This document shows, in pieces, positions 7,531 to 61,670 of a stretch of 64,000 nucleotides of DNA. Within the stretch, counting starts at the first letter, position 1. Every line of letters starts with the position of its first letter. Below the pieces are notes generated by a model. That model worked only from the letters and a program-made list of their open reading frames with translations. It did no database searches and had not been told where the DNA came from. The DNA is from Escherichia coli. Lineage in GTDB: Bacteria > Pseudomonadota > Gammaproteobacteria > Enterobacterales > Enterobacteriaceae. The stretch is taken from assembly GCF_003334815.1 (NCBI RefSeq), contig NZ_QOWO01000009.1. The stretch is one strand, 5' to 3'. The position numbers and the translations under genes are program-made.

Positions 7531-7647
<117 letters not shown>

Positions 7648-10033: not shown

Positions 10034-10066
10034 GCCGGATGCGACGTTTGATGCGTCTTATCCGGC
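10034..10066. repeat. Single REP element between convergent rof and tilS
   Basis: GCCGGATGCGACGTTTGATGCGTCTTATCCGGC, an imperfect palindrome of REP type. Confidence 0.8.
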
Positions 10067-11881: not shown

Positions 11882-14023
11882 TTATCCCGCCATTTTTAGG
11901 ACTCGTACGCGGTAAACGCCGTCTTCGTCCTGTTTCGCGCCGTGAATATCCGTTTCAAAACCGGGGTAATGTTGCCCGACGGAACAAAGCATCAGTAGAA
12001 AATCGAGTACTGTGCGGCTCTCTTTGGTCAGCATTTCTCCAGGCATCAACAGCGGTACGCCCGGTGGATAAGGCAGGATCATATTTGCCGATACTCTACC
12101 GACCAGTTGTTCCAGCGCAATGGTTTCTACTTCGCCTTTAATTTGTCGTTGCCATGCCTGATGTGGCGTCATGATCATCTCCGGCAAAGTATCGAATGCC
12201 CGCAACATCAAACCGGGAAGATCGTGTTTACGAATCAGCTTATGGATCCCTTGTGCCAGATCCTGAATACGCATATTGCGGTAGAAATCGGGATCTTCTG
12301 CATAGAGATCGGGTAGCATATTTTTGATCCGCAGGTTGAGATCGTAAGAGCGTTTGAATTCCGTCAACCCACGCAATAATCCCATTGCTTTGGTTTTATC
12401 GATGCCAATACTAAAGAGAAACAGCAGGTTATAAGGGCCGGTTTTCTCTACTACGATCCCACGTTCGTCGAGGAATTTTGCTACCAGCGCCGCCGGGATC
12501 CCCTCCTCGCTCATATTGCCCTGCTCGTCCATCCCCGGTGTCAAAATAGTGACTTTAACCGGATCGAGAAACATATGATCGGCATCCGCATCGTTAAAGC
12601 CGTGCCACTGTTCGCCAGGCGCAACGGGCCAGCATTCGGCTTCATCCACCTGCGGCGGTTGCCAGATATCGAAAAACCAACCGTCAGACTCTTCCCGCAG
12701 CCGCTGGACCTCTTTGCGAAAATGCAGAGCTCGTTCTACTGAACGGTTAATCAGCCGTTTGCCCGGATTACCACGCAGCATCGCCGCCGCCGTCTCAACC
12801 GAAGCAACAATGGGATAACTGGGCGAGGTGGTGGTATGCATCATAAAGGCTTCGTTAAAGGCCTCTTCGTCATACTCGCCTTTAATGTGGATCAGCGAAG
12901 CCTGCGATAACGCCGCCAGCATTTTGTGGGTCGATTGCGTTTCGAAGATCACTTTTCCCGCAACACGCTCGCCGCTCATACCACTTTTACCCTGGTAGAT
13001 CGGATGAAAATGGGTGTACGGCACCCAGGCAGAATCGAAGTGAATCGACGGGACATCCAGCGTCTGTTTGATCCAGTCGGTGTTGTAGAGCAAGCCATCA
13101 TAGGTGGAGTTGGTGATCACCGCATGAACCGGCCATTGTGCTTGCGTGGTAGCAGCGACTTTCTCTTCGATGCTGTCGCGAGTAAATTCACGGCGCGGGA
13201 TCCCACCAAGAATCCCCAACGCATTACGCGTCGGTTTCAGCCAGACTGGCACTACATCGTTCATCATCAACAGATGCGCCAGCGATTTATGACAATTGCG
13301 GTCGATCAACAGCGTACTGCCGGATGGCGCGGCGTACATACCCACAATTTTGTTCGACGTCGATGTTCCGTTGGTAACGATATAACTCTGTTCCGCGCCA
13401 AAAGTCCGCGCGATGTACTCTTCCGCTTCCAGGTGTGGCCCGGTGTGGTCGAGCAACGAACCAAGCTCGGTGACCGAAATAGAGACATCAGCCTTAAGAG
13501 TATTCCCGCCGAAAAAATCATAAAACAGACAGCCAACCGGGCTTTTTTGATATGCGGTGCCGCCCATATGCCCCGGCGTACAAAAGGTGTACTTCCGCTC
13601 TTTGACGTAGGTAAACAAGGCTTTCGTGAACGGCGGTGTAATGTTATCAAGATATTCGTCGGTGTACTGACGCATACGAATGGCGATATCTTCCGCCTGC
13701 CCCAGCGCATATTCAAAAAACCAGAGCGCCATCCGCATATCCTGCACGCTGACATCCATCGTCGAGTGGGTGTTGATGAAGGCATAAAGCGGGAGATATT
13801 CATTAAGCTGATTGATATCGCTACATAAATCGAGACTGTACTCATCCCAGTCAAAAATCACGCCGCAAATTCGAGGGTTATGTTCGATAAATTTCAGCAA
13901 ATCAACGCTGTTTTGTGGCCAGATAATCTGAAAGCCTTGCGCCACCAGCGCCGACTCCAGTTCTTTGATGGGCTCATCTTTATAAAAGACGCCATGCGGT
14001 CCCATAATGGCAATGATGTTCAT
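11882..14023 (-). CDS. ldcC: Constitutive lysine decarboxylase
   Basis: 713 aa; fold-type I PLP decarboxylase with the STHKML lysine motif; N-terminus MNIIAIMGPHGVFYKDEPIKELE. Confidence 0.95.
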   Translation of the reverse strand: MNIIAIMGPHGVFYKDEPIKELESALVAQGFQIIWPQNSVDLLKFIEHNPRICGVIFDWDEYSLDLCSDINQLNEYLPLYAFINTHSTMDVSVQDMRMALWFFEYALGQAEDIAIRMRQYTDEYLDNITPPFTKALFTYVKERKYTFCTPGHMGGTAYQKSPVGCLFYDFFGGNTLKADVSISVTELGSLLDHTGPHLEAEEYIARTFGAEQSYIVTNGTSTSNKIVGMYAAPSGSTLLIDRNCHKSLAHLLMMNDVVPVWLKPTRNALGILGGIPRREFTRDSIEEKVAATTQAQWPVHAVITNSTYDGLLYNTDWIKQTLDVPSIHFDSAWVPYTHFHPIYQGKSGMSGERVAGKVIFETQSTHKMLAALSQASLIHIKGEYDEEAFNEAFMMHTTTSPSYPIVASVETAAAMLRGNPGKRLINRSVERALHFRKEVQRLREESDGWFFDIWQPPQVDEAECWPVAPGEQWHGFNDADADHMFLDPVKVTILTPGMDEQGNMSEEGIPAALVAKFLDERGIVVEKTGPYNLLFLFSIGIDKTKAMGLLRGLTEFKRSYDLNLRIKNMLPDLYAEDPDFYRNMRIQDLAQGIHKLIRKHDLPGLMLRAFDTLPEMIMTPHQAWQRQIKGEVETIALEQLVGRVSANMILPYPPGVPLLMPGEMLTKESRTVLDFLLMLCSVGQHYPGFETDIHGAKQDEDGVYRVRVLKMAG

Positions 14024-50109: not shown

Positions 50110-50240
<131 letters not shown>

Positions 50241-56437: not shown

Positions 56438-58972
56438 TTAATTACTACCAAACATATCCTTGATCCAACCGGCTACACCGTCGCTGTCTTTCTGCTCTTG
56501 CTGAGCAGGTTGCTGTTGCGGCTGTTGCTGCGGCTGAGAAGACTGATCAAACGGATTGCCTGACGGCTGCTGCTGCATCTCGCTCTGCTGGCACAGCGAT
56601 TGCGGATCGCTGGTCCAGACCGGCAAGATACGCATGCCACCGCTGCAAACAAAGTTGCCGTCGTAGTCCACGCCCATATCTGCAATATCTTCTGGCGGAA
56701 CAAGATTCAGCGGCGTTGGCGTCTGGTTAGCCAGATAACGCTGATAAATCGACATTGCCCCGCTGGCACCATACAGTTTGGTCGGCTGGTTGTTATCACG
56801 GCCGACCCAGGTGATGGTCACCGTGCTGCCGTCAATGCCCGCAAACCAGGTATCTACGTTATTGTTGGTAGTCCCTGTTTTCCCTGCCAGATGCAGGTTC
56901 GGGTATTTCGCCCCAAGCTGACGACCCGTACCGCGTTGTACCACCTGCTGCATGGTCCATAGTGTCAGATACGCCGCCTGCGCCGGAACAGCGCGTTCCG
57001 CCTGCGGGAAGCTCTGATACAGCACTTTGCCATCTTCCGCGATTACCGAACGCAGCGCAGAAAGCGGTGCACGGTTACCACCGCTGGCGATGGTCTGGAA
57101 TGCCTGCGCCACTTCGATTGGCGTTAAGTTCAACGCCCCCAGCAGCATTGCCGGAACCGGATGCAACTGATCTTTCGGTACGCCCAGTTTAATCCAGGTC
57201 TCCGTAACCGCAGGCAGCCCCAGCGCCATCCCCAGATTTACCGTCGGCACGTTCATCGAACGGGTCAACGCATCCACCAGCATCACTCTGCCGCTTTCGC
57301 TATAACGACGGTCATCATTCTGCGGTGACCAGACCTGGCCATTCGGCTGACGCAGCGCAATTGGCGCATCCGCAATCCACGTATTCAGACGATAGATTTT
57401 CGGCTGGCTTAAGGCCGTCAGATAAGTCGCTGGTTTTGCAAGGGAACCAATCGAACGACGCGCCTGCATCGCACGGTTGTAGCCCGCAAATTGCGGCTCA
57501 GAACCTCCGACCATCGCACGAACTTCACCACTAAAGCGGTCGACGACCACAATCGCAGTTTCAAGATCGCTCAACTTACGCTGTTTCTTCAGTGCCGGAA
57601 TGCCTTCCACGGCGGCTTTTTCTGCCGCGTCCTGGGCCACCGAGTCAAAGGTAGTGAAGATCTTCACGCCGGAGAGATCTTTTACCTTATCGCCCAGTTT
57701 TGCCTGCAGCTCCTGACGCACCAGTTGCATAAAGGCTGGCTGAGGAGAGATCACCCCACCGCGCGGCTGAACCCCCAGCGGACGGGCACTCAACATGTCA
57801 TAGAGTTCTTGATCAATAATCTGTTGCTGTTGCAGCAGACGCAGCACCAGATTACGTCGCTCCAGCGCCAGTTTTGGGTTACGCCACGGGTTGTAGATGG
57901 ACGCCCCTTTCACCATACCGACTAACAGCGCCTGCTGGTCGAGGCTTAGCTCTTCTACCGGGCGACCAAAGTAATACAAGCTTGCCAGCGGGAAGCCGCG
58001 GATTTCGTTGTCGCCGCTCTGACCGAGATACACCTCGTTCATATACAGCTCAAGAATACGGTCTTTGCTGTAACGCGCGTCCATGATCAGCGCCATGTAA
58101 GCTTCGTTCGCTTTACGCCAGTAAGAACGCTCGCTGGAGAGGAACAGGTTTTTCACCAGCTGTTGCGTCAGCGTACTCGCACCCTGTACCGTGCGTCCGG
58201 CGGTCAGGTTTGCCAGCACCGCACGTCCGATTGAGTAGAGACTGATTCCATCATGCTCGTAAAAATGACGGTCTTCTGTCGCCAGCAAAGTATCCACCAG
58301 CAAATCCGGGAAACCACTGCGCGGCACAAACAGACGCTGCTCACCGTTTGGCGAAGAGATCATGGTGATCAGACGCGGATCAAGACGGAAGAAACCGAAC
58401 TGACGGTTGTTCTCCATATTGACGATCGTCGCCAGATGATCGCCATCAAAGGTCAGACGCGCGCGCACCTGTCCTTCTTTACTGTCCGGGAAATCAAACG
58501 GACGGCGAATCATCTCAATGCTGTTGGCCTGCACGGTAAATTCGCCAGGACGGGTCATTTTCGACACCTGACGATACTGGGTCGCCTCCAGCAGCTTCAC
58601 CATCTCGTTCTTGCTGATGGTCATGTCTGGCTCAAGATTGACCATTCGGCCATAAACTGCCGCAGGCAGTTGCCAGACCTTGCCATCAATACGGCTACGA
58701 ATTTTTTGATCGAGATAAACGCCGTAAATGGCGATCAGCACGGCAAAAACGATAGCCAGTTTTAGCAGTAGCCATAGCCAGCCGCGTTTGCCACGAGGCT
58801 TACGCCCTTTGCCTTTGCCCTTACCTTTGCGCGGCATCGGTTCTTCATCCTCATAGTCATCATAATCGTCGTAATCATCGTCATCTTCGTAACGACGACG
58901 GCTTACCTTTTGTTTGACCGGACGCGTCGGTTTCCCTTTGCGTCCAATTGGCTCGCGGTCATTCCCGGCCAT
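56438..58972 (-). CDS. mrcB: Penicillin-binding protein 1B (bifunctional glycosyltransferase/transpeptidase)
   Basis: 844 aa from [18 protein letters not shown]; acidic DDYDDYED stretch, transmembrane anchor, C-terminal Q/P-rich tail; the track ORF is extended by 5 codons. Confidence 0.95.
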
Positions 58973-59070
58973 GCTTTTTCTCCGCAATATTCAGGCGCAA
59001 AAGCCCGATTTTCTGTTCTTCTGTTACAAGACAGAAGAAGATATCTCTCAAAATTTGTGCTCGATCGGTC

Positions 59071-59155
59071 CCCTCTCCCTTGAGGGAGAGGGTTAGGGTG
59101 AGGGTGAACGTGCGCGCTGATGCCCTCACCCCGGCCCTCTCCCACAGGGAGAGGG
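59071..59155. repeat. GC-rich triple-hairpin palindromic repeat in the hrpB-mrcB spacer
   Basis: Three consecutive inverted repeats with related arms: CCCTCTCCC-TTGA-GGGAGAGGG (59071-59092), GGGTGAGGG-(18 nt)-CCCTCACCC (59096-59131), CCCTCTCCC-ACA-GGGAGAGGG (59135-59155). It resembles E. coli intergenic repeat families; the exact family was not determined. Confidence 0.7.
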
Positions 59156-59167
59156 AGAAAACCAACC

Positions 59168-61597
59168 TTACGAATACTTTTTCGTCCGTCGCGTCGGTGC
59201 AGTATTTGCCGGGTCGTCCGGCCAGACATGTTTGGGATAACGCCCTTTCATCTCTTTTTGCACCTCACGGTACGCTCCTTTCCAGAAGGCGCTCAAATCT
59301 CGTGTGATTTGTAATGGCCTTTGGGCAGGTGAAAGCAACTCCAGCACCAGCGGCACGCGCCCCTGGGCGATCGTCGGATTGGTGGCCTCGCCAAACATCT
59401 CTTGCATTCTCACCGCCAGCGCGGGCGGGTTATCTTCATGATAACGAATGGCGATCCGGCTTCCCGTCGGCACAGTGTAATGCGCAGGCAATTCACTATC
59501 CAGACGTTGCTGCATTCCCCAATCAAGTAATCCGCGTAGTGCCTGATAAATGTCGAGTGATTTCAGGCCGCGTAGTGAATGTACGCCAGTCATATGTGGC
59601 AGCAGCCACGTTTCCAGCGCTGCCAATAAACTTTCATCATCAACCGCTGGCCAGTCATATTCCGGCAACCACTTTGCGGCGCATAACAAACGCAAGCGTA
59701 GCTGTTCCGCTTCCGCCGTCCAGTTGAGCACGCTTAAACCTTTATCACGGATGCCATTAAGCATCGCCTGATGCAACTCGTCTTCTGACGGTTTCGCCAG
59801 CGGCTGCACTTTCACCGTCAACTGACCGATTTGTAGCCGACGCCAGGCTTTCAGCGTACCTTGCGCGTCATCCCACTCCACAGTGTCAGACTGCTGTACC
59901 AGCTGCGGGCAGCGTTGTACTAACTCATCAATATCGACCAGCAGCGCCAGTAAAATCCGCGCATCCGGCGAGGCGCTGCCCTGCAATAATAACGGTGCGA
60001 TCAACCATTCGTGGCGGCTTAGCGCGTCGTTGGCATCGAGCATCGCTCCCATGCCGTTTGCCAGTTGATAGCGTCCATCTTGCCCACGGCGACGAGCAAT
60101 GCGATCGGCAAACGCCCCGGCAAGTAGCGGCGCGATAAGCGAACTGTCTGCCTCACCGCCACGTACGTTTAAGCGTTTTAACAGTTGCTGACTACGTTGC
60201 TGCCAGGCTGGTTGATTGCGCGAAAACGCCACGCCCAGGTCACTATTGCCCATCCGTGGCGGCTCTTCGAGAATGGCGGCAATTTTTGCCGCGGTAGCAG
60301 CTTCGTCGTCGTTCTTCGCGCTAACCAGCATTGCCGCTAAACGCGGATCGTTACCCAGCGCTGCCATTTTTTGCCCTTGCGCACTAAGCCGTTCACCCTC
60401 CAGTGCCCCCAGCATTTGTAACAGACGTTTCGCGGCCAGTAGATTCACTACTGGCGGTTGATCCAGCCAGCTCATCTGCGCCGGATCGCTGCATCCCCAT
60501 TGCAGTAATTCCATCAGCAAACCGGAAAGATCGCTTTGTAAGATCTCCGGTTCACTTTGCGCCGCGGCGCGTTCTGCTTGTTCTTTGGCGATTAAATGCA
60601 GGCTGATACCCGGCTCCAGACGCCCGGCGCGCCCGGCACGCTGCGTCATGGATGCCTGGCTAACGCGTTGAGTAATCAGTCGCGTAAGCCCCGTGCGCGG
60701 ATCAAAACGCGCCACACGCTCCTGGGCACAATCCACCACCAGACGAATACCTTCAATGGTTAAACTGGTTTCAGCAATATTGGTCGCCAGCACCACTTTG
60801 CGCATCCCTTGCGGTGCCGGGAGGATCGCTTTTCGCTGATCGTTCAGCGACAACGCGCCATACAGCGGGCAGAGCAATACATCACTGCCGATGCGCGAAG
60901 CCAGTTGTTCCTGCACACGCTGAATTTCTCCGACGCCAGGTAAAAATAACAGTAATGATCCGCTTTCCTGACGCAGCATTTCAGCGGTGGCTACCGCAAC
61001 GGCATCGTCAAAACGCTGATGCGCGGGCAGCGGTAAATAACGGCGTTCAACCGGAAACGAGCGCCCTTCTGAGATGACGACAGGCGCTTCTGGCAGCATT
61101 TGCTGCAAGCGGTCGTTGTCCAGGGTAGCCGACATAATCAGCAGTTTAAGGTCATCACGCAGACCTTGTTGCACATCGAGTAACAGCGCCAACGCCAAAT
61201 CCGCCTGCAAGCTGCGCTCATGAAATTCATCAAGGATCACCAGTCCAACACCGCTCAGTTCCGGGTCACGCTGGATCATGCGCGTCAGCACGCCTTCGGT
61301 AACCACTTCCAGGCGGGTATTCGGCCCGACGCAGTTTTGCGCACGCATCCGGTAGCCAACGGTATCGCCTGGCTTTTCGTTAAGCAGCTCCGCCAGCCGT
61401 TGCGCGACGTTACGCGCCGCCAGACGACGCGGCTCCAGCAGGATAATTTTCCCGTTAATGCCGGGATGCGCCAGCAGTTGCAGCGGCAGCCAGGTTGATT
61501 TCCCGGCCCCGGTCGGCGCACTTAATAATACCTGCGGCGCACAATCGAGAGCGGTAAGTAATTCAGGTAAGACGGCAGCAACGGGCAACGACGACAC
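59168..61597 (-). CDS. hrpB: ATP-dependent DEAH-box RNA helicase HrpB
   Basis: About 809 aa if translation starts at the GTG at 61597 (…SSLPVAAVLPELLTALD); the track ORF is 15 codons longer; Walker A GAGKST and DEFH motifs are present. Confidence 0.88.
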   Translation of the reverse strand: MSSLPVAAVLPELLTALDCAPQVLLSAPTGAGKSTWLPLQLLAHPGINGKIILLEPRRLAARNVAQRLAELLNEKPGDTVGYRMRAQNCVGPNTRLEVVTEGVLTRMIQRDPELSGVGLVILDEFHERSLQADLALALLLDVQQGLRDDLKLLIMSATLDNDRLQQMLPEAPVVISEGRSFPVERRYLPLPAHQRFDDAVAVATAEMLRQESGSLLLFLPGVGEIQRVQEQLASRIGSDVLLCPLYGALSLNDQRKAILPAPQGMRKVVLATNIAETSLTIEGIRLVVDCAQERVARFDPRTGLTRLITQRVSQASMTQRAGRAGRLEPGISLHLIAKEQAERAAAQSEPEILQSDLSGLLMELLQWGCSDPAQMSWLDQPPVVNLLAAKRLLQMLGALEGERLSAQGQKMAALGNDPRLAAMLVSAKNDDEAATAAKIAAILEEPPRMGNSDLGVAFSRNQPAWQQRSQQLLKRLNVRGGEADSSLIAPLLAGAFADRIARRRGQDGRYQLANGMGAMLDANDALSRHEWLIAPLLLQGSASPDARILLALLVDIDELVQRCPQLVQQSDTVEWDDAQGTLKAWRRLQIGQLTVKVQPLAKPSEDELHQAMLNGIRDKGLSVLNWTAEAEQLRLRLLCAAKWLPEYDWPAVDDESLLAALETWLLPHMTGVHSLRGLKSLDIYQALRGLLDWGMQQRLDSELPAHYTVPTGSRIAIRYHEDNPPALAVRMQEMFGEATNPTIAQGRVPLVLELLSPAQRPLQITRDLSAFWKGAYREVQKEMKGRYPKHVWPDDPANTAPTRRTKKYS

Positions 61598-61670
61598 AAA
61601 ACGCTCCAGAGGGTTAACATTCTTCGCGCCACATTGTAGCATCGCGGTAATTCATAACCGAGTGCCTCAC

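What the first reader, a model, noticed from the sequence alone, without database searches (positions are those of the whole stretch)
59071..59155. Triple-hairpin GC-rich repeat filling the hrpB-mrcB spacer
Three consecutive perfect 9 bp inverted repeats with related arm sequences (CCCTCTCCC/GGGAGAGGG twice, flanking GGGTGAGGG/CCCTCACCC) sit between the hrpB stop and the mrcB start. It is not REP-type. It produces spurious ORFs on both strands in the track, with low-complexity translations such as TLTLTLSLKGEG. It could be an hrpB terminator, a mrcB 5' regulatory structure or a dispersed repeat-family copy.
Basis: seen in the sequence. Interest (0 to 1): 0.35.

Follow-up and report, generated by a model that had tools for sequence, protein, structure and literature searches.

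The report
Known BoxC repeat pair after hrpB
The GC-rich "triple hairpin" between hrpB and mrcB is a copy of BoxC (also called PIT, TMECO or HPGQ), a dispersed palindromic repeat of E. coli already catalogued at exactly this site, so it is ordinary; it is dispensable, prone to deletion, and marks an RNA 3' end of the hrpB transcript.

Summary
The six 9-nt blocks lie at 59071-59155 and chance expects none.

The anatomy is better described as two inverted copies of a 34-35 nt three-block unit, CCCTCTCCC-loop-GGGAGAGGG-loop-GGGTGAGGG. With family-specific tails it forms a 111-bp composite (59057-59167) that abuts the hrpB stop codon.

The window is identical here to E. coli K-12. These two units are TMECO no. 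1 and no. 2 of Holder et al. 2015, and HPGQ no. 5 and no. 6 of Kaplan et al. 2016. The same family was earlier called BoxC and PIT. E. coli genomes carry a median of 11 places that match it.

At this locus the element is dispensable and unstable. About 35% of 5,426 E. coli genomes, and the nearest Escherichia outgroups, have an empty 93-nt spacer. Other alleles are slippage deletions or a pair in the opposite orientation.

There is no U-tract terminator. Published Term-seq nevertheless places a sense-strand RNA 3' end 5 nt past the last stem, as at other BoxC copies. The hairpin most likely acts as a REP-like exonuclease stop for hrpB mRNA.

The mrcB leader is separate and lies downstream. The 68-aa ORF across the element is almost certainly spurious.

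Verdict: already known, low interest.

The parts
59057..59070 (+). 5' tail of the type-A unit (GTGCTCGATCGGTC). Subfamily consensus is roughly GAGCRC....CRGTC.
   Evidence: In 9 further type-A units from 9 other K-12 loci, all end in GTC immediately before the unit and most have GAGCRC/GCGC 8-12 nt upstream. This tail travels with the A unit in the opposite-orientation allele.
59071..59105 (+). Type-A BoxC/TMECO unit CCCTCTCCC-TTGA-GGGAGAGGG-TTA-GGGTGAGGG-T. It equals TMECO no. 2 (K-12 164631-164597) and HPGQ no. 6.
   Evidence: Exact match to the published pattern and to the Table 1 sequence of PMC4666352. The window is identical to K-12 here. Also listed in the Kaplan table.
59105..59122 (.). 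18-nt central spacer TGAACGTGCGCGCTGATG between the two inverted units. Its first and last bases, 59105 and 59122, are also the terminal bases of the two published TMECO sequences. The GTGCGCGCTGATG part is the conserved 3' tail of type-B units.
   Evidence: Single type-B units elsewhere carry the same tail: CATCAGCGCGCAC at ilvC-ppiC, and gtgcggcctgatg in Enterobacter, Lelliottia and Leclercia.
59122..59155 (-). Type-B BoxC/TMECO unit CCCTCTCCC-TGT-GGGAGAGGG-CCG-GGGTGAGGG-C on the hrpB-sense strand. It equals TMECO no. 1 (K-12 164547-164580) and HPGQ no. 5.
59156..59167 (-). 5' tail of the type-B unit (GGTTGGTTTTCT; subfamily consensus ...TTTTCT). It directly abuts the hrpB stop codon.
   Evidence: 8 type-B units in K-12 all have a TTTTCT / TTTTCC / GTTCT type tail. 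In other genera it reads GGGAGAGGGagaaaac.
59168..59170 (-). hrpB stop codon (TAA). The hrpB CDS is 59168..61642(-).
59066..59066 (-). Published Term-seq RNA 3' end (K-12 164636, + strand there). It lies 5 nt after the last GGGAGAGGG block, i.e. at the 3' foot of the hairpin in the hrpB-sense transcript.
   Evidence: Adams et al. 2021, Supplementary files 1 and 3: sheet M63 OD 0.4, average read count 986.8, context ...CCCTCAAGGGAGAGGGGACCG|ATCGAGCACA. Coordinate conversion: window = 223702 - K-12 coordinate.
58973..59056 (-). Conserved mrcB leader. It is not part of the repeat and is present in every genus whether or not BoxC is there. It contains the invariant TTGAGAGAT and a hairpin TTCTTCTGT-n6-ACAGAAGAA at 59016-59039.
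   Evidence: Alignment of 75 spacers. The four inner hairpin pairs show 8, 18, 29 and 31 double compensatory changes. The empty-site spacers consist of this leader plus about 10 nt.
59023..59051 (-). Promoter-like element TTGAGA (59051-59046), 17-nt spacer, TGTAAC (59028-59023), proposed from RpoD genomic SELEX for mrcB. It lies downstream of the repeat.
   Evidence: Shimada et al. 2014 table. My consensus scan did not call it, and the -10 hexamer is not conserved in other genera.
58959..59165 (-). 68-aa ORF with a TTG start inside the B unit. Its N-terminal part (about 35 aa) is translated BoxC and its C-terminus overlaps the mrcB leader and start codon. Very probably not a gene.
   Evidence: Absent from the roughly 35% of genomes with an empty spacer. 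The reading frame is broken in Salmonella, Kosakonia and others.

Best explanation
The feature is a full-length composite BoxC element, also published as a PIT element, as TMECO no. 1 + no. 2, and as HPGQ no. 5 + no. 6. It consists of one type-A and one type-B three-block unit in inverted orientation, each with its subfamily-specific tail. It sits in the only dispensable stretch of the spacer, between the hrpB stop codon and the conserved mrcB leader.

It belongs to a non-coding, chromosomal, dispersed repeat family of Enterobacteriaceae.

Shown:
- Identity with the catalogued copies.
- Multi-copy dispersal across E. coli genomes.
- Dispensability, from empty alleles and empty outgroups.
- Structure-prone instability: deletions whose end-points are the internal direct repeats.
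- An in vivo sense-strand RNA 3' end 5 nt past the last stem, with the same geometry at other BoxC copies.

Inferred: the element has no locus-specific regulatory purpose. When hrpB transcription runs into it, the very stable GC hairpin forms. Transcripts that end further downstream are trimmed back by 3'-5' exonucleases to the foot of the hairpin, which gives hrpB mRNA a protected 3' end. This is the behaviour described for REP elements and for Rho-dependent transcripts (Dar and Sorek 2018).

At the DNA level, the same self-complementarity, plus the hairpin, triplex and G-quadruplex folds shown in vitro by others, promotes replication slippage. That produces the observed allele series.
For: Identity:
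- The window is 100% identical to K-12 across the spacer.
- Both units match the published TMECO pattern, with 0 matches expected by chance.
- Both units equal entries 1 and 2 of Table 1 in PMC4666352, and the hrpB>>>mrcB rows of the table in PMC5100583.

Family:
- blastn finds 58,670 places in 5,335 of 5,426 E. coli genomes. The median is 11 and the maximum 26 per genome. Only 43 places are on plasmids.
- 11 other K-12 loci show the same units, with A-specific and B-specific tails.

Dispensability and instability:
- Only 3,536 of 5,426 genomes cover at least 80% of the K-12 allele. The remainder are about 103 bp shorter.
- E. albertii, E. whittamii and Escherichia sp. MOD1-EC7003 have an empty 93-nt spacer.
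- 197 genomes carry a 64-bp deletion that exactly equals the spacing of the two direct CCCTCTCCC copies.
- About 152 genomes lack one 12-nt AGGGNGAGGGTN tandem unit.
- 84 genomes carry an A+B pair in the opposite orientation.

RNA 3' end:
- Term-seq places a 3' end at K-12 164636 (+), which is window 59066.
- 3' ends lie 4-5 nt after the Y-R hairpin at five other BoxC-type copies (one, at 4231270, degenerate): 3781065 (lldD primary end), 632098, 4231270, 847200 and 3959467.
- The hairpin is very stable: -75.8 kcal/mol, z = -8.6.
- The exonuclease-trimming model comes from PMC6061677.
Against: - The 3' end at this locus was detected in only one of three growth conditions, with a low read count (986.8). 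It could be a decay intermediate of no consequence.
- I could not enumerate all BoxC copies against the Term-seq table. The six coincidences may therefore be a favourable subset.
- No direct test of hrpB mRNA stability with and without the element exists.
- Holder et al. and Kaplan et al. favour DNA-level roles (triplex-induced instability, G4-hairpin switch), and these are not excluded.
- A type-B unit sits at the same place in many Enterobacter, Lelliottia and Leclercia species. This could mean selection for a local function rather than neutrality.
- How the family spreads is unknown. I found no target-site duplication and no associated transposase.
Confidence: 0.8

Rival explanations
1. It is the intrinsic (Rho-independent) terminator of hrpB. 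The hairpin itself makes RNA polymerase release the transcript.
For: It is a very stable hairpin starting 12 nt after the hrpB stop codon. A Term-seq 3' end lies 5 nt after the last stem. No Rho-termination region is listed there in the bicyclomycin data set.
Against: There is no U-tract. The stem is followed by GACCGATCGAGCAC, and the terminator scan finds nothing. PIT/BoxC elements showed no terminator or promoter activity in reporter assays (Hoyne and Maher 2002, as reported). In Enterobacter and relatives a separate canonical hairpin with a T-run follows the BoxC unit. 35% of E. coli genomes do without the element.
Confidence: 0.1
2. It is a DNA-level structural element (intrastrand purine-motif triplex, G-quadruplex or cruciform). 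Its biological role would be to stall replication and generate local genome variability, or to act as a supercoil- or ion-sensitive switch just upstream of the mrcB promoter.
For: Oligonucleotides of both unit types form stable triplexes (Tm 70-82 C, NMR), and TMECO loci are more variable than control spacers. CD evidence supports G4/hairpin switching. The purine half, GGGAGAGGGTTAGGGTGAGGG, is a textbook G3N3G3N3G3N3G3 motif. The allele series at this very locus fits structure-promoted slippage. The element ends 19 nt upstream of the proposed -35 hexamer.
Against: In vivo DMS footprinting showed no triplex protection, and the duplex form dominates when the complement is present. Instability is equally expected from any palindromic repeat with internal direct repeats, so it need not be a selected function. 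No expression effect has been demonstrated. Strains without the element are common.
Confidence: 0.15
3. It is a cis-regulatory RNA structure in the 5' untranslated region of mrcB.
For: It lies about 100 nt upstream of the mrcB ATG. hrpB read-through transcripts would carry it ahead of mrcB. A type-B unit occupies the equivalent position in many genera.
Against: The part of the spacer conserved in all 75 aligned sequences is the roughly 90-nt leader downstream of the element, which has its own covarying hairpin. The element is absent in about 35% of E. coli genomes, in E. albertii, and in all sampled Citrobacter and Salmonella. It occurs in both orientations. The SELEX-predicted mrcB promoter lies downstream of it.
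Confidence: 0.04
4. The region encodes a real 68-aa protein (annotated D8B36_18480 in one MG1655 record) that regulates curli expression.
For: The exact sequence is annotated as a hypothetical protein on at least 1,000 contigs. A pUC19 clone of this ORF reduced csgA expression 18-fold (PMC10869245).
Against: The ORF has a TTG start inside the repeat. Its first roughly 35 residues are the translation of the BoxC pair, and the remainder overlaps the mrcB leader and start codon. The ORF shrinks to 30-40 aa in most other Escherichia alleles (50 aa in the opposite-orientation E69 allele, whose N-terminus is unrelated) and is cut by in-frame stops in Salmonella, Kosakonia and some Citrobacter. The 64-bp deletion allele shifts the frame. 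Current RefSeq annotation shows no CDS there and has locus-tag gaps between hrpB and mrcB. The clone also contains the repeat and the mrcB promoter and leader, which could cause the phenotype.
Confidence: 0.03

Closest known systems
BoxC / PIT element / TMECO / HPGQ (Bergler 1992; Bachellier 1999; Hoyne and Maher 2000, 2002; Holder et al. 2015; Kaplan et al. 2016)
   Same: Identical. Both units match the defining pattern. Their sequences and K-12 coordinates are entries 1 and 2 of the TMECO table and the hrpB/mrcB rows of the HPGQ table. The A+B inverted pairing matches the other four K-12 pairs.
   Different: Nothing differs at the sequence level. This work adds locus detail:
- the subfamily-specific tails, which extend the element to 111 bp
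- allele frequencies in 5,426 genomes
- an opposite-orientation allele
- occupancy of the same spacer in other genera
- the coincidence with Term-seq 3' ends
REP / BIME (PU) elements of enterobacteria
   Same: Both are dispersed, extragenic, GC-rich palindromic repeats, often just downstream of stop codons. They form RNA hairpins that stop 3'-5' exonucleases and mark steady-state mRNA 3' ends, and they occur singly or as inverted pairs.
   Different: There is no sequence relationship: the REP consensus GCCKGATGCGRCGY is absent here. BoxC has a three-block Y-R-R design with triplex and G4 potential, a much lower copy number (about 20 against several hundred), and no known RAYT-type transposase or IHF/gyrase binding.
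Protective 3' stem-loops of Rho-dependent transcripts (Dar and Sorek 2018)
   Same: A stable stem-loop without a U-tract, with the steady-state RNA 3' end a few nt downstream.
   Different: Rho dependence of hrpB termination is not shown. No Rho termination region is listed at this site.
Canonical intrinsic terminator
   Same: A GC-rich hairpin immediately after a stop codon, with an RNA 3' end at its foot.
   Different: It has no U-tract, and published reporter tests were negative. Relatives have a separate genuine terminator next to their BoxC unit.

Membership tests
BoxC / PIT / TMECO | Sequence pattern 5'-CCCTCNCCC N3-6 GGGNGAGGG N3 GGGNGAGGG-3' (Holder et al. 2015) | tested here: met
   Exactly two matches in the 64-kb window, at 59071-59104 (+) and 59123-59155 (-), with 0.00 expected. 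The pattern text is quoted.
BoxC / PIT / TMECO | Dispersed in many copies per genome, chromosomal and intergenic | tested here: met
   Median 11 and maximum 26 places per E. coli genome. 58,627 places are chromosomal against 43 on plasmids. All 11 other K-12 loci fetched are intergenic. This copy lies between hrpB and mrcB.
BoxC / PIT / TMECO | Two subtypes (loop 2 = TTA for type A, CCG for type B). Paired sites always combine A with B in inverted orientation. | tested here: met
   The window has A on the + strand and B on the - strand. All four other K-12 pairs also combine a TTA-loop unit with a CCG/CTG/TCG-loop unit.
BoxC / PIT / TMECO | Listed in the published catalogue at this genomic position | tested here: met
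   Table 1 entries 1 and 2 are at 164547-164580 and 164631-164597. The window is identical to K-12 164520-164745. It is also HPGQ no. 5 and no. 6.
BoxC / PIT / TMECO | Single strand folds into a purine-motif intrastrand triplex in vitro | not testable with these tools
   Shown by CD, melting and NMR for type-A and type-B oligonucleotides by Holder et al.. Not seen in vivo by DMS footprinting.
REP / BIME | REP consensus GCCKGATGCGRCGY stem-loop | tested here: not met
   Six matches elsewhere in the window (7587, 7614, 10034, 12156, 50114, 50185) and none within 58900-59300.
Intrinsic terminator | GC-rich hairpin followed within 0-2 nt by a U-rich tract | tested here: not met
   No terminator-like site on either strand of 58800-59400. 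The sequence after the last stem is GACCGATCGAGCAC.
Potential G-quadruplex motif | Four G3 tracts separated by loops of 1-7 nt | tested here: met
   GGGAGAGGGTTAGGGTGAGGG on the + strand at 59084-59104, and GGGAGAGGGCCGGGGTGAGGG on the - strand at 59123-59143. Folding in vivo is not testable here.
MITE-type non-autonomous transposon | Terminal inverted repeats flanked by a target-site duplication, with a clean empty site | tested here: inconclusive
   The two arms are inverted repeats. Comparing the filled alleles (K-12, E69) with the empty alleles shows no duplication, and about 10 nt of the empty site are replaced rather than preserved.
Rfam RNA families | Score at or above a family's gathering threshold | tested here: not met
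   Only sub-threshold hits to eukaryotic miRNA hairpin models, the best at 29.4 bits against a gathering score of 74.

The most novel reading that the evidence does not exclude
The long-unassigned BoxC/PIT/TMECO family acts mainly at the RNA level, as a REP-like 3'-end-defining and mRNA-protecting hairpin. Term-seq 3' ends sit 4-5 nt past the Y-R stem at this and at least five other BoxC-type copies (one degenerate), in either orientation. In addition, the gap between the hrpB stop codon and the mrcB leader would be a preferred landing or retention site. It is occupied independently in both orientations in Escherichia, and a type-B unit sits in a fixed position across Enterobacter, Lelliottia and Leclercia. 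Neither point is made in the triplex or G-quadruplex papers.
Probability: 0.35. Interest if true: 0.4.

Novelty: already known. Interest (0 to 1): 0.13.

Why it matters
For the scan, this finding can be closed as a textbook dispersed repeat that standard annotation does not label. The K-12 RefSeq record carries no feature here.

Three practical points follow:
1. ORFs called across BoxC copies are artefacts. One of them, the 68-aa 'D8B36_18480', has been interpreted as a conserved curli regulator in a 2024 paper. Its phenotype should be re-tested with start and stop mutants.
2. The element breaks short-read assemblies. Many 'partial' copies of that ORF sit at the ends of contigs of about 59-60 kb.
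3. Published 3'-end maps suggest an RNA-level role for BoxC that earlier promoter and terminator reporter tests would have missed. This gives a cheap, testable hypothesis for a repeat family whose function has been open since 1992.

Tried and rejected
- Rfam at a permissive E-value over 58700-59500 gave only sub-threshold eukaryotic miRNA hairpin hits. No curated RNA family matches.
- The promoter and terminator consensus scan of 58800-59400 found nothing on either strand.
- I looked for a target-site duplication or a clean insertion boundary by comparing filled and empty alleles. None was found, and the junctions are partly rewritten.
- I considered whether the opposite-orientation allele arose by recombination between the two arms. 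I rejected this because such a flip would invert only the 18-nt centre, whereas the A and B arms and their tails are swapped.
- I tried to obtain transcription-start data (Thomason 2015); the paper is not held.
- I tried three more Term-seq sources. Two have no supplement text held and one gave no hit.
- The first tblastn for the mrcB start used a frame-shifted query because I mis-indexed the ATG by one base. It was redone correctly.
- The allele-specific query for the 12-bp deletion was not clean, because gapped alignments of the full allele also cover more than 80% of it. Only the >=99% identity band of about 152 genomes is used.
- I considered CRISPR and tandem-repeat readings of the 12-nt AGGGNGAGGGTN periodicity. 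There are only two adjacent copies.

Full report
**1. Observation**

The sequence at 59071-59155 reads, on the + strand: CCCTCTCCC TTGA GGGAGAGGG TTA GGGTGAGGG TGAACGTGCGCGCTGATG CCCTCACCC CGG CCCTCTCCC ACA GGGAGAGGG.

It also reports a 27-nt imperfect inverted repeat that spans the whole element. Dinucleotide-preserving shuffles of the window give 0.00 expected matches for the arm patterns.

The 68-aa ORF at 58959..59165(-) contains TLTLTLSLKGEG.

The flanking genes are as stated. hrpB is 59168..61642(-) and mrcB is 56438..58972(-). The window is 100% identical to E. coli K-12 MG1655 across the spacer.

**2. Anatomy**

The six blocks are not only three neighbouring hairpins. They are also nested-complementary.
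- The sense-strand RNA, which is the window's minus strand, folds into one long hairpin of -75.8 kcal/mol, z = -8.6.
- For the 111-nt element, the long hairpin scores -74.2 kcal/mol against -53.5 kcal/mol for three separate hairpins.
- Single-stranded DNA gives the same topology.

The natural unit is a three-block string: pyrimidine block, loop, purine block, loop, purine block. It is present once on each strand.

I compared the copy with 11 other K-12 loci. The two units belong to two subfamilies:
- Type A has loop 2 = TTA and a 5' tail ending ...CRGTC.
- Type B has loop 2 = CCG/TCG, a 5' tail of ...TTTTCT, and a 3' tail of CATCAGCGCGCAC.

With its tails, the element in the window runs from 59057 to 59167 and touches the hrpB stop codon.

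**3. Identity**

A literature search led to Holder et al. 2015 (PMC4666352). Table 1 of that paper lists 'TMECO' no. 1, CCCTCTCCCTGTGGGAGAGGGCCGGGGTGAGGGC, at K-12 164547-164580. It lists no. 2, CCCTCTCCCTTGAGGGAGAGGGTTAGGGTGAGGGT, at 164631-164597. These are letter for letter the two units here.

The paper states that the motif was first described as BoxC in the 1990s and rediscovered as the PIT element by Hoyne and Maher. Its defining pattern matches the window exactly twice, with 0 matches expected by chance.

Kaplan et al. 2016 (PMC5100583) list the same two units as putative G-quadruplex motifs HPGQ 5 and 6, between hrpB and mrcB.

My own blastn of the element found 58,670 places in 5,335 of 5,426 complete E. 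coli genomes. The median is 11 per genome, and almost all places are chromosomal.

REP consensus sequences occur elsewhere in the window but not here. Rfam has no family for the element.

**4. The locus in populations and relatives**

A 451-nt query across the spacer is covered to at least 80% in only 3,536 of 5,426 genomes. In the others the match is about 103 bp shorter. Alignment of representative alleles, followed by allele-specific searches, gives this series:
- Intact K-12-type pair: the majority.
- 64-bp deletion, 197 genomes. It equals the distance between the two direct CCCTCTCCC copies at 59071 and 59135, and leaves a simple hairpin.
- 12-bp deletion of one AGGGNGAGGGTN tandem unit, about 152 genomes. 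This is the O145:H28 type.
- A+B pair in the opposite orientation with different junctions, 84 genomes. This is the EC1515/E69 type.
- Empty spacer, about 1,890 genomes.

The deletion end-points are what replication slippage across a hairpin predicts. They also match the 'palindrome effect' that Holder et al. describe.

I fetched the junction from 80 species representatives; both genes could be located in 76 of them.
- E. albertii, E. whittamii and Escherichia sp. MOD1-EC7003 have the empty 93-nt spacer, so the empty state is most simply ancestral in Escherichia.
- All 21 Citrobacter and Salmonella loci lack BoxC blocks. This agrees with the published absence of TMECO from Salmonella.
- 16 species have a strict TMECO match in this same spacer, and about 11 more have degenerate remnants. 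They are mainly Enterobacter, Lelliottia and Leclercia. Most carry a type-B unit in a fixed position and orientation just upstream of the mrcB leader.
- Some spacers hold arrays: three tandem copies in L085 and five units in L053.

**5. What is conserved in the spacer is not the repeat**

The last roughly 90 nt before the mrcB ATG are conserved in all 75 aligned sequences. This stretch includes a hairpin at window 59016-59039. Its four inner pairs show 8, 18, 29 and 31 double compensatory changes.

The RpoD-SELEX study proposes the mrcB promoter TTGAGA-17-TGTAAC inside this leader. That places it downstream of the repeat. The repeat therefore occupies the only free stretch, between the hrpB stop codon and the mrcB leader.

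**6. Function**

No canonical terminator or promoter is predicted in the spacer. Earlier reporter work found no promoter or terminator activity for these elements. In Enterobacter and relatives, a separate hairpin with a T-run follows the BoxC unit.

Adams et al. 2021 list a curated Term-seq 3' end at K-12 164636 (+), which is window 59066. It lies 5 nt after the last GGGAGAGGG block, in M63 medium, with a low read count. It is classed 'orphan' only because it is more than 50 nt from the hrpB stop codon. No other 3' end and no Rho-termination region is listed in the spacer.

In the same table, 3' ends lie 4-5 nt after the Y-R stem at five other BoxC-type copies (one, at 4231270, degenerate), in both orientations. 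One of them is the primary 3' end of lldD, and another is a strong end downstream of ppiC.

A stable stem without a U-tract, followed immediately by the steady-state 3' end, is the signature Dar and Sorek 2018 assign to exonuclease trimming back to a protective stem-loop. REP elements behave this way. I therefore take the RNA-level exonuclease stop as the most likely working of the element at this locus. I mark this as inferred, because nobody has compared hrpB mRNA with and without the element.

The DNA-level properties come from others' work: triplex by CD and NMR, and G4/hairpin switching by CD. They were not seen in vivo. They plausibly contribute to the instability but need not be a selected function.

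**7. The ORF**

The 68-aa ORF is annotated as a hypothetical protein on at least 1,000 contigs. A 2024 paper calls it D8B36_18480, a 'phylogenetically conserved small protein' that represses curli.

Several observations argue against a real gene:
- It starts at a TTG inside the B unit.
- Its first roughly 35 residues are translated repeat, and the remainder overlaps the mrcB leader and start codon.
- It shrinks to 30-40 aa in most other Escherichia alleles; the opposite-orientation E69 allele gives 50 aa with an unrelated N-terminus.
- It is interrupted by stops in Salmonella, Kosakonia and some Citrobacter.
- Current RefSeq records annotate nothing there and show locus-tag gaps.

**8. Verdict**

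The terminator idea is half right, and the mrcB regulatory idea is unsupported.

The feature is already known under four names and is catalogued at this exact site. Interest is low.

The residual novelty lies in two things. One is the RNA 3'-end coincidence across the family. The other is the recurrent occupancy of this spacer, including an opposite-orientation allele.

Noticed in passing
window 58973-59056 (-), hairpin at 59016-59039: The roughly 90 nt upstream of the mrcB ATG are conserved across all 75 aligned Enterobacteriaceae spacers. They contain an invariant TTGAGAGAT and a hairpin (TTCTTCTGT-n6-ACAGAAGAA in E. coli). The four inner pairs of the hairpin show 8, 18, 29 and 31 double compensatory changes. 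No Rfam family matches. This looks like an uncharacterised structured mrcB leader or operator. The -10 hexamer of the SELEX-predicted promoter overlaps the hairpin and is not conserved.
   Followed up: partly
window 58959-59165 (-): The 68-aa ORF built from the BoxC pair is the 'D8B36_18480' protein that a 2024 paper (PMC10869245) credits with repressing curli. Comparative evidence argues that it is not a gene. The reported phenotype may come from the cloned repeat or from the mrcB promoter and leader.
   Followed up: partly
protein cluster of the 68-aa ORF: Many members are 'partial' proteins lying at the ends of contigs of about 58-60 kb. This suggests that short-read assemblies of E. coli and Shigella routinely break at this BoxC pair.
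   Followed up: no
L004 (E. coli EC1515) 381-480; L009 (E. coli E69) 2254-2447: 84 of 5,426 E. coli genomes carry an A+B BoxC pair in the same spacer but in the opposite orientation, with different junctions and an 'A mm' unit. This points to an independent insertion or conversion event, not a flip between the arms. Lelliottia sp. V86_10 (L042) has the same orientation.
   Followed up: partly
L085 2254-2632; L053 2254-2762: In two unnamed Enterobacteriaceae the hrpB-mrcB spacer has expanded. L085 has three tandem copies of a roughly 96-nt module (type-B BoxC unit plus a terminator-like hairpin). L053 has a 509-nt spacer with five strict BoxC units.
   Followed up: no
L052 2328-2352, L085 2518-2544, and similar sites in L039, L066, L053, L036: Enterobacter, Leclercia and relatives have a canonical terminator hairpin with a T-run between the BoxC unit and the mrcB leader. 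E. coli has none in this spacer.
   Followed up: partly
Adams et al. 2021 Supplementary file 1 (K-12 3781065+, 632098+, 4231270-, 847200-, 3959467-): Term-seq RNA 3' ends sit 4-5 nt past the Y-R stem of other BoxC copies, in both orientations. One is the primary lldD end and another is a strong end downstream of ppiC. I did not find this pattern noted in the BoxC, TMECO or HPGQ papers I read.
   Followed up: partly
L077 (CACSKA010000010.1): A contig titled 'Chryseobacterium sp. 18061' encodes an enterobacterial hrpB-mrcB junction with 81% HrpB identity and BoxC remnants. The record is probably mislabelled or contaminated.
   Followed up: no
L005 and L006 annotation: RefSeq locus tags skip one number between hrpB and mrcB (I3Y_RS00755/00765 and SS17_RS00775/00785). 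This is consistent with a formerly annotated ORF in the spacer that was later dropped.
   Followed up: no
window 7587-7627, 10034-10047, 12156-12169, 50114-50198: Genuine REP/BIME consensus matches occur elsewhere in the window, two of them as inverted pairs. They serve as a useful contrast to the BoxC element.
   Followed up: no
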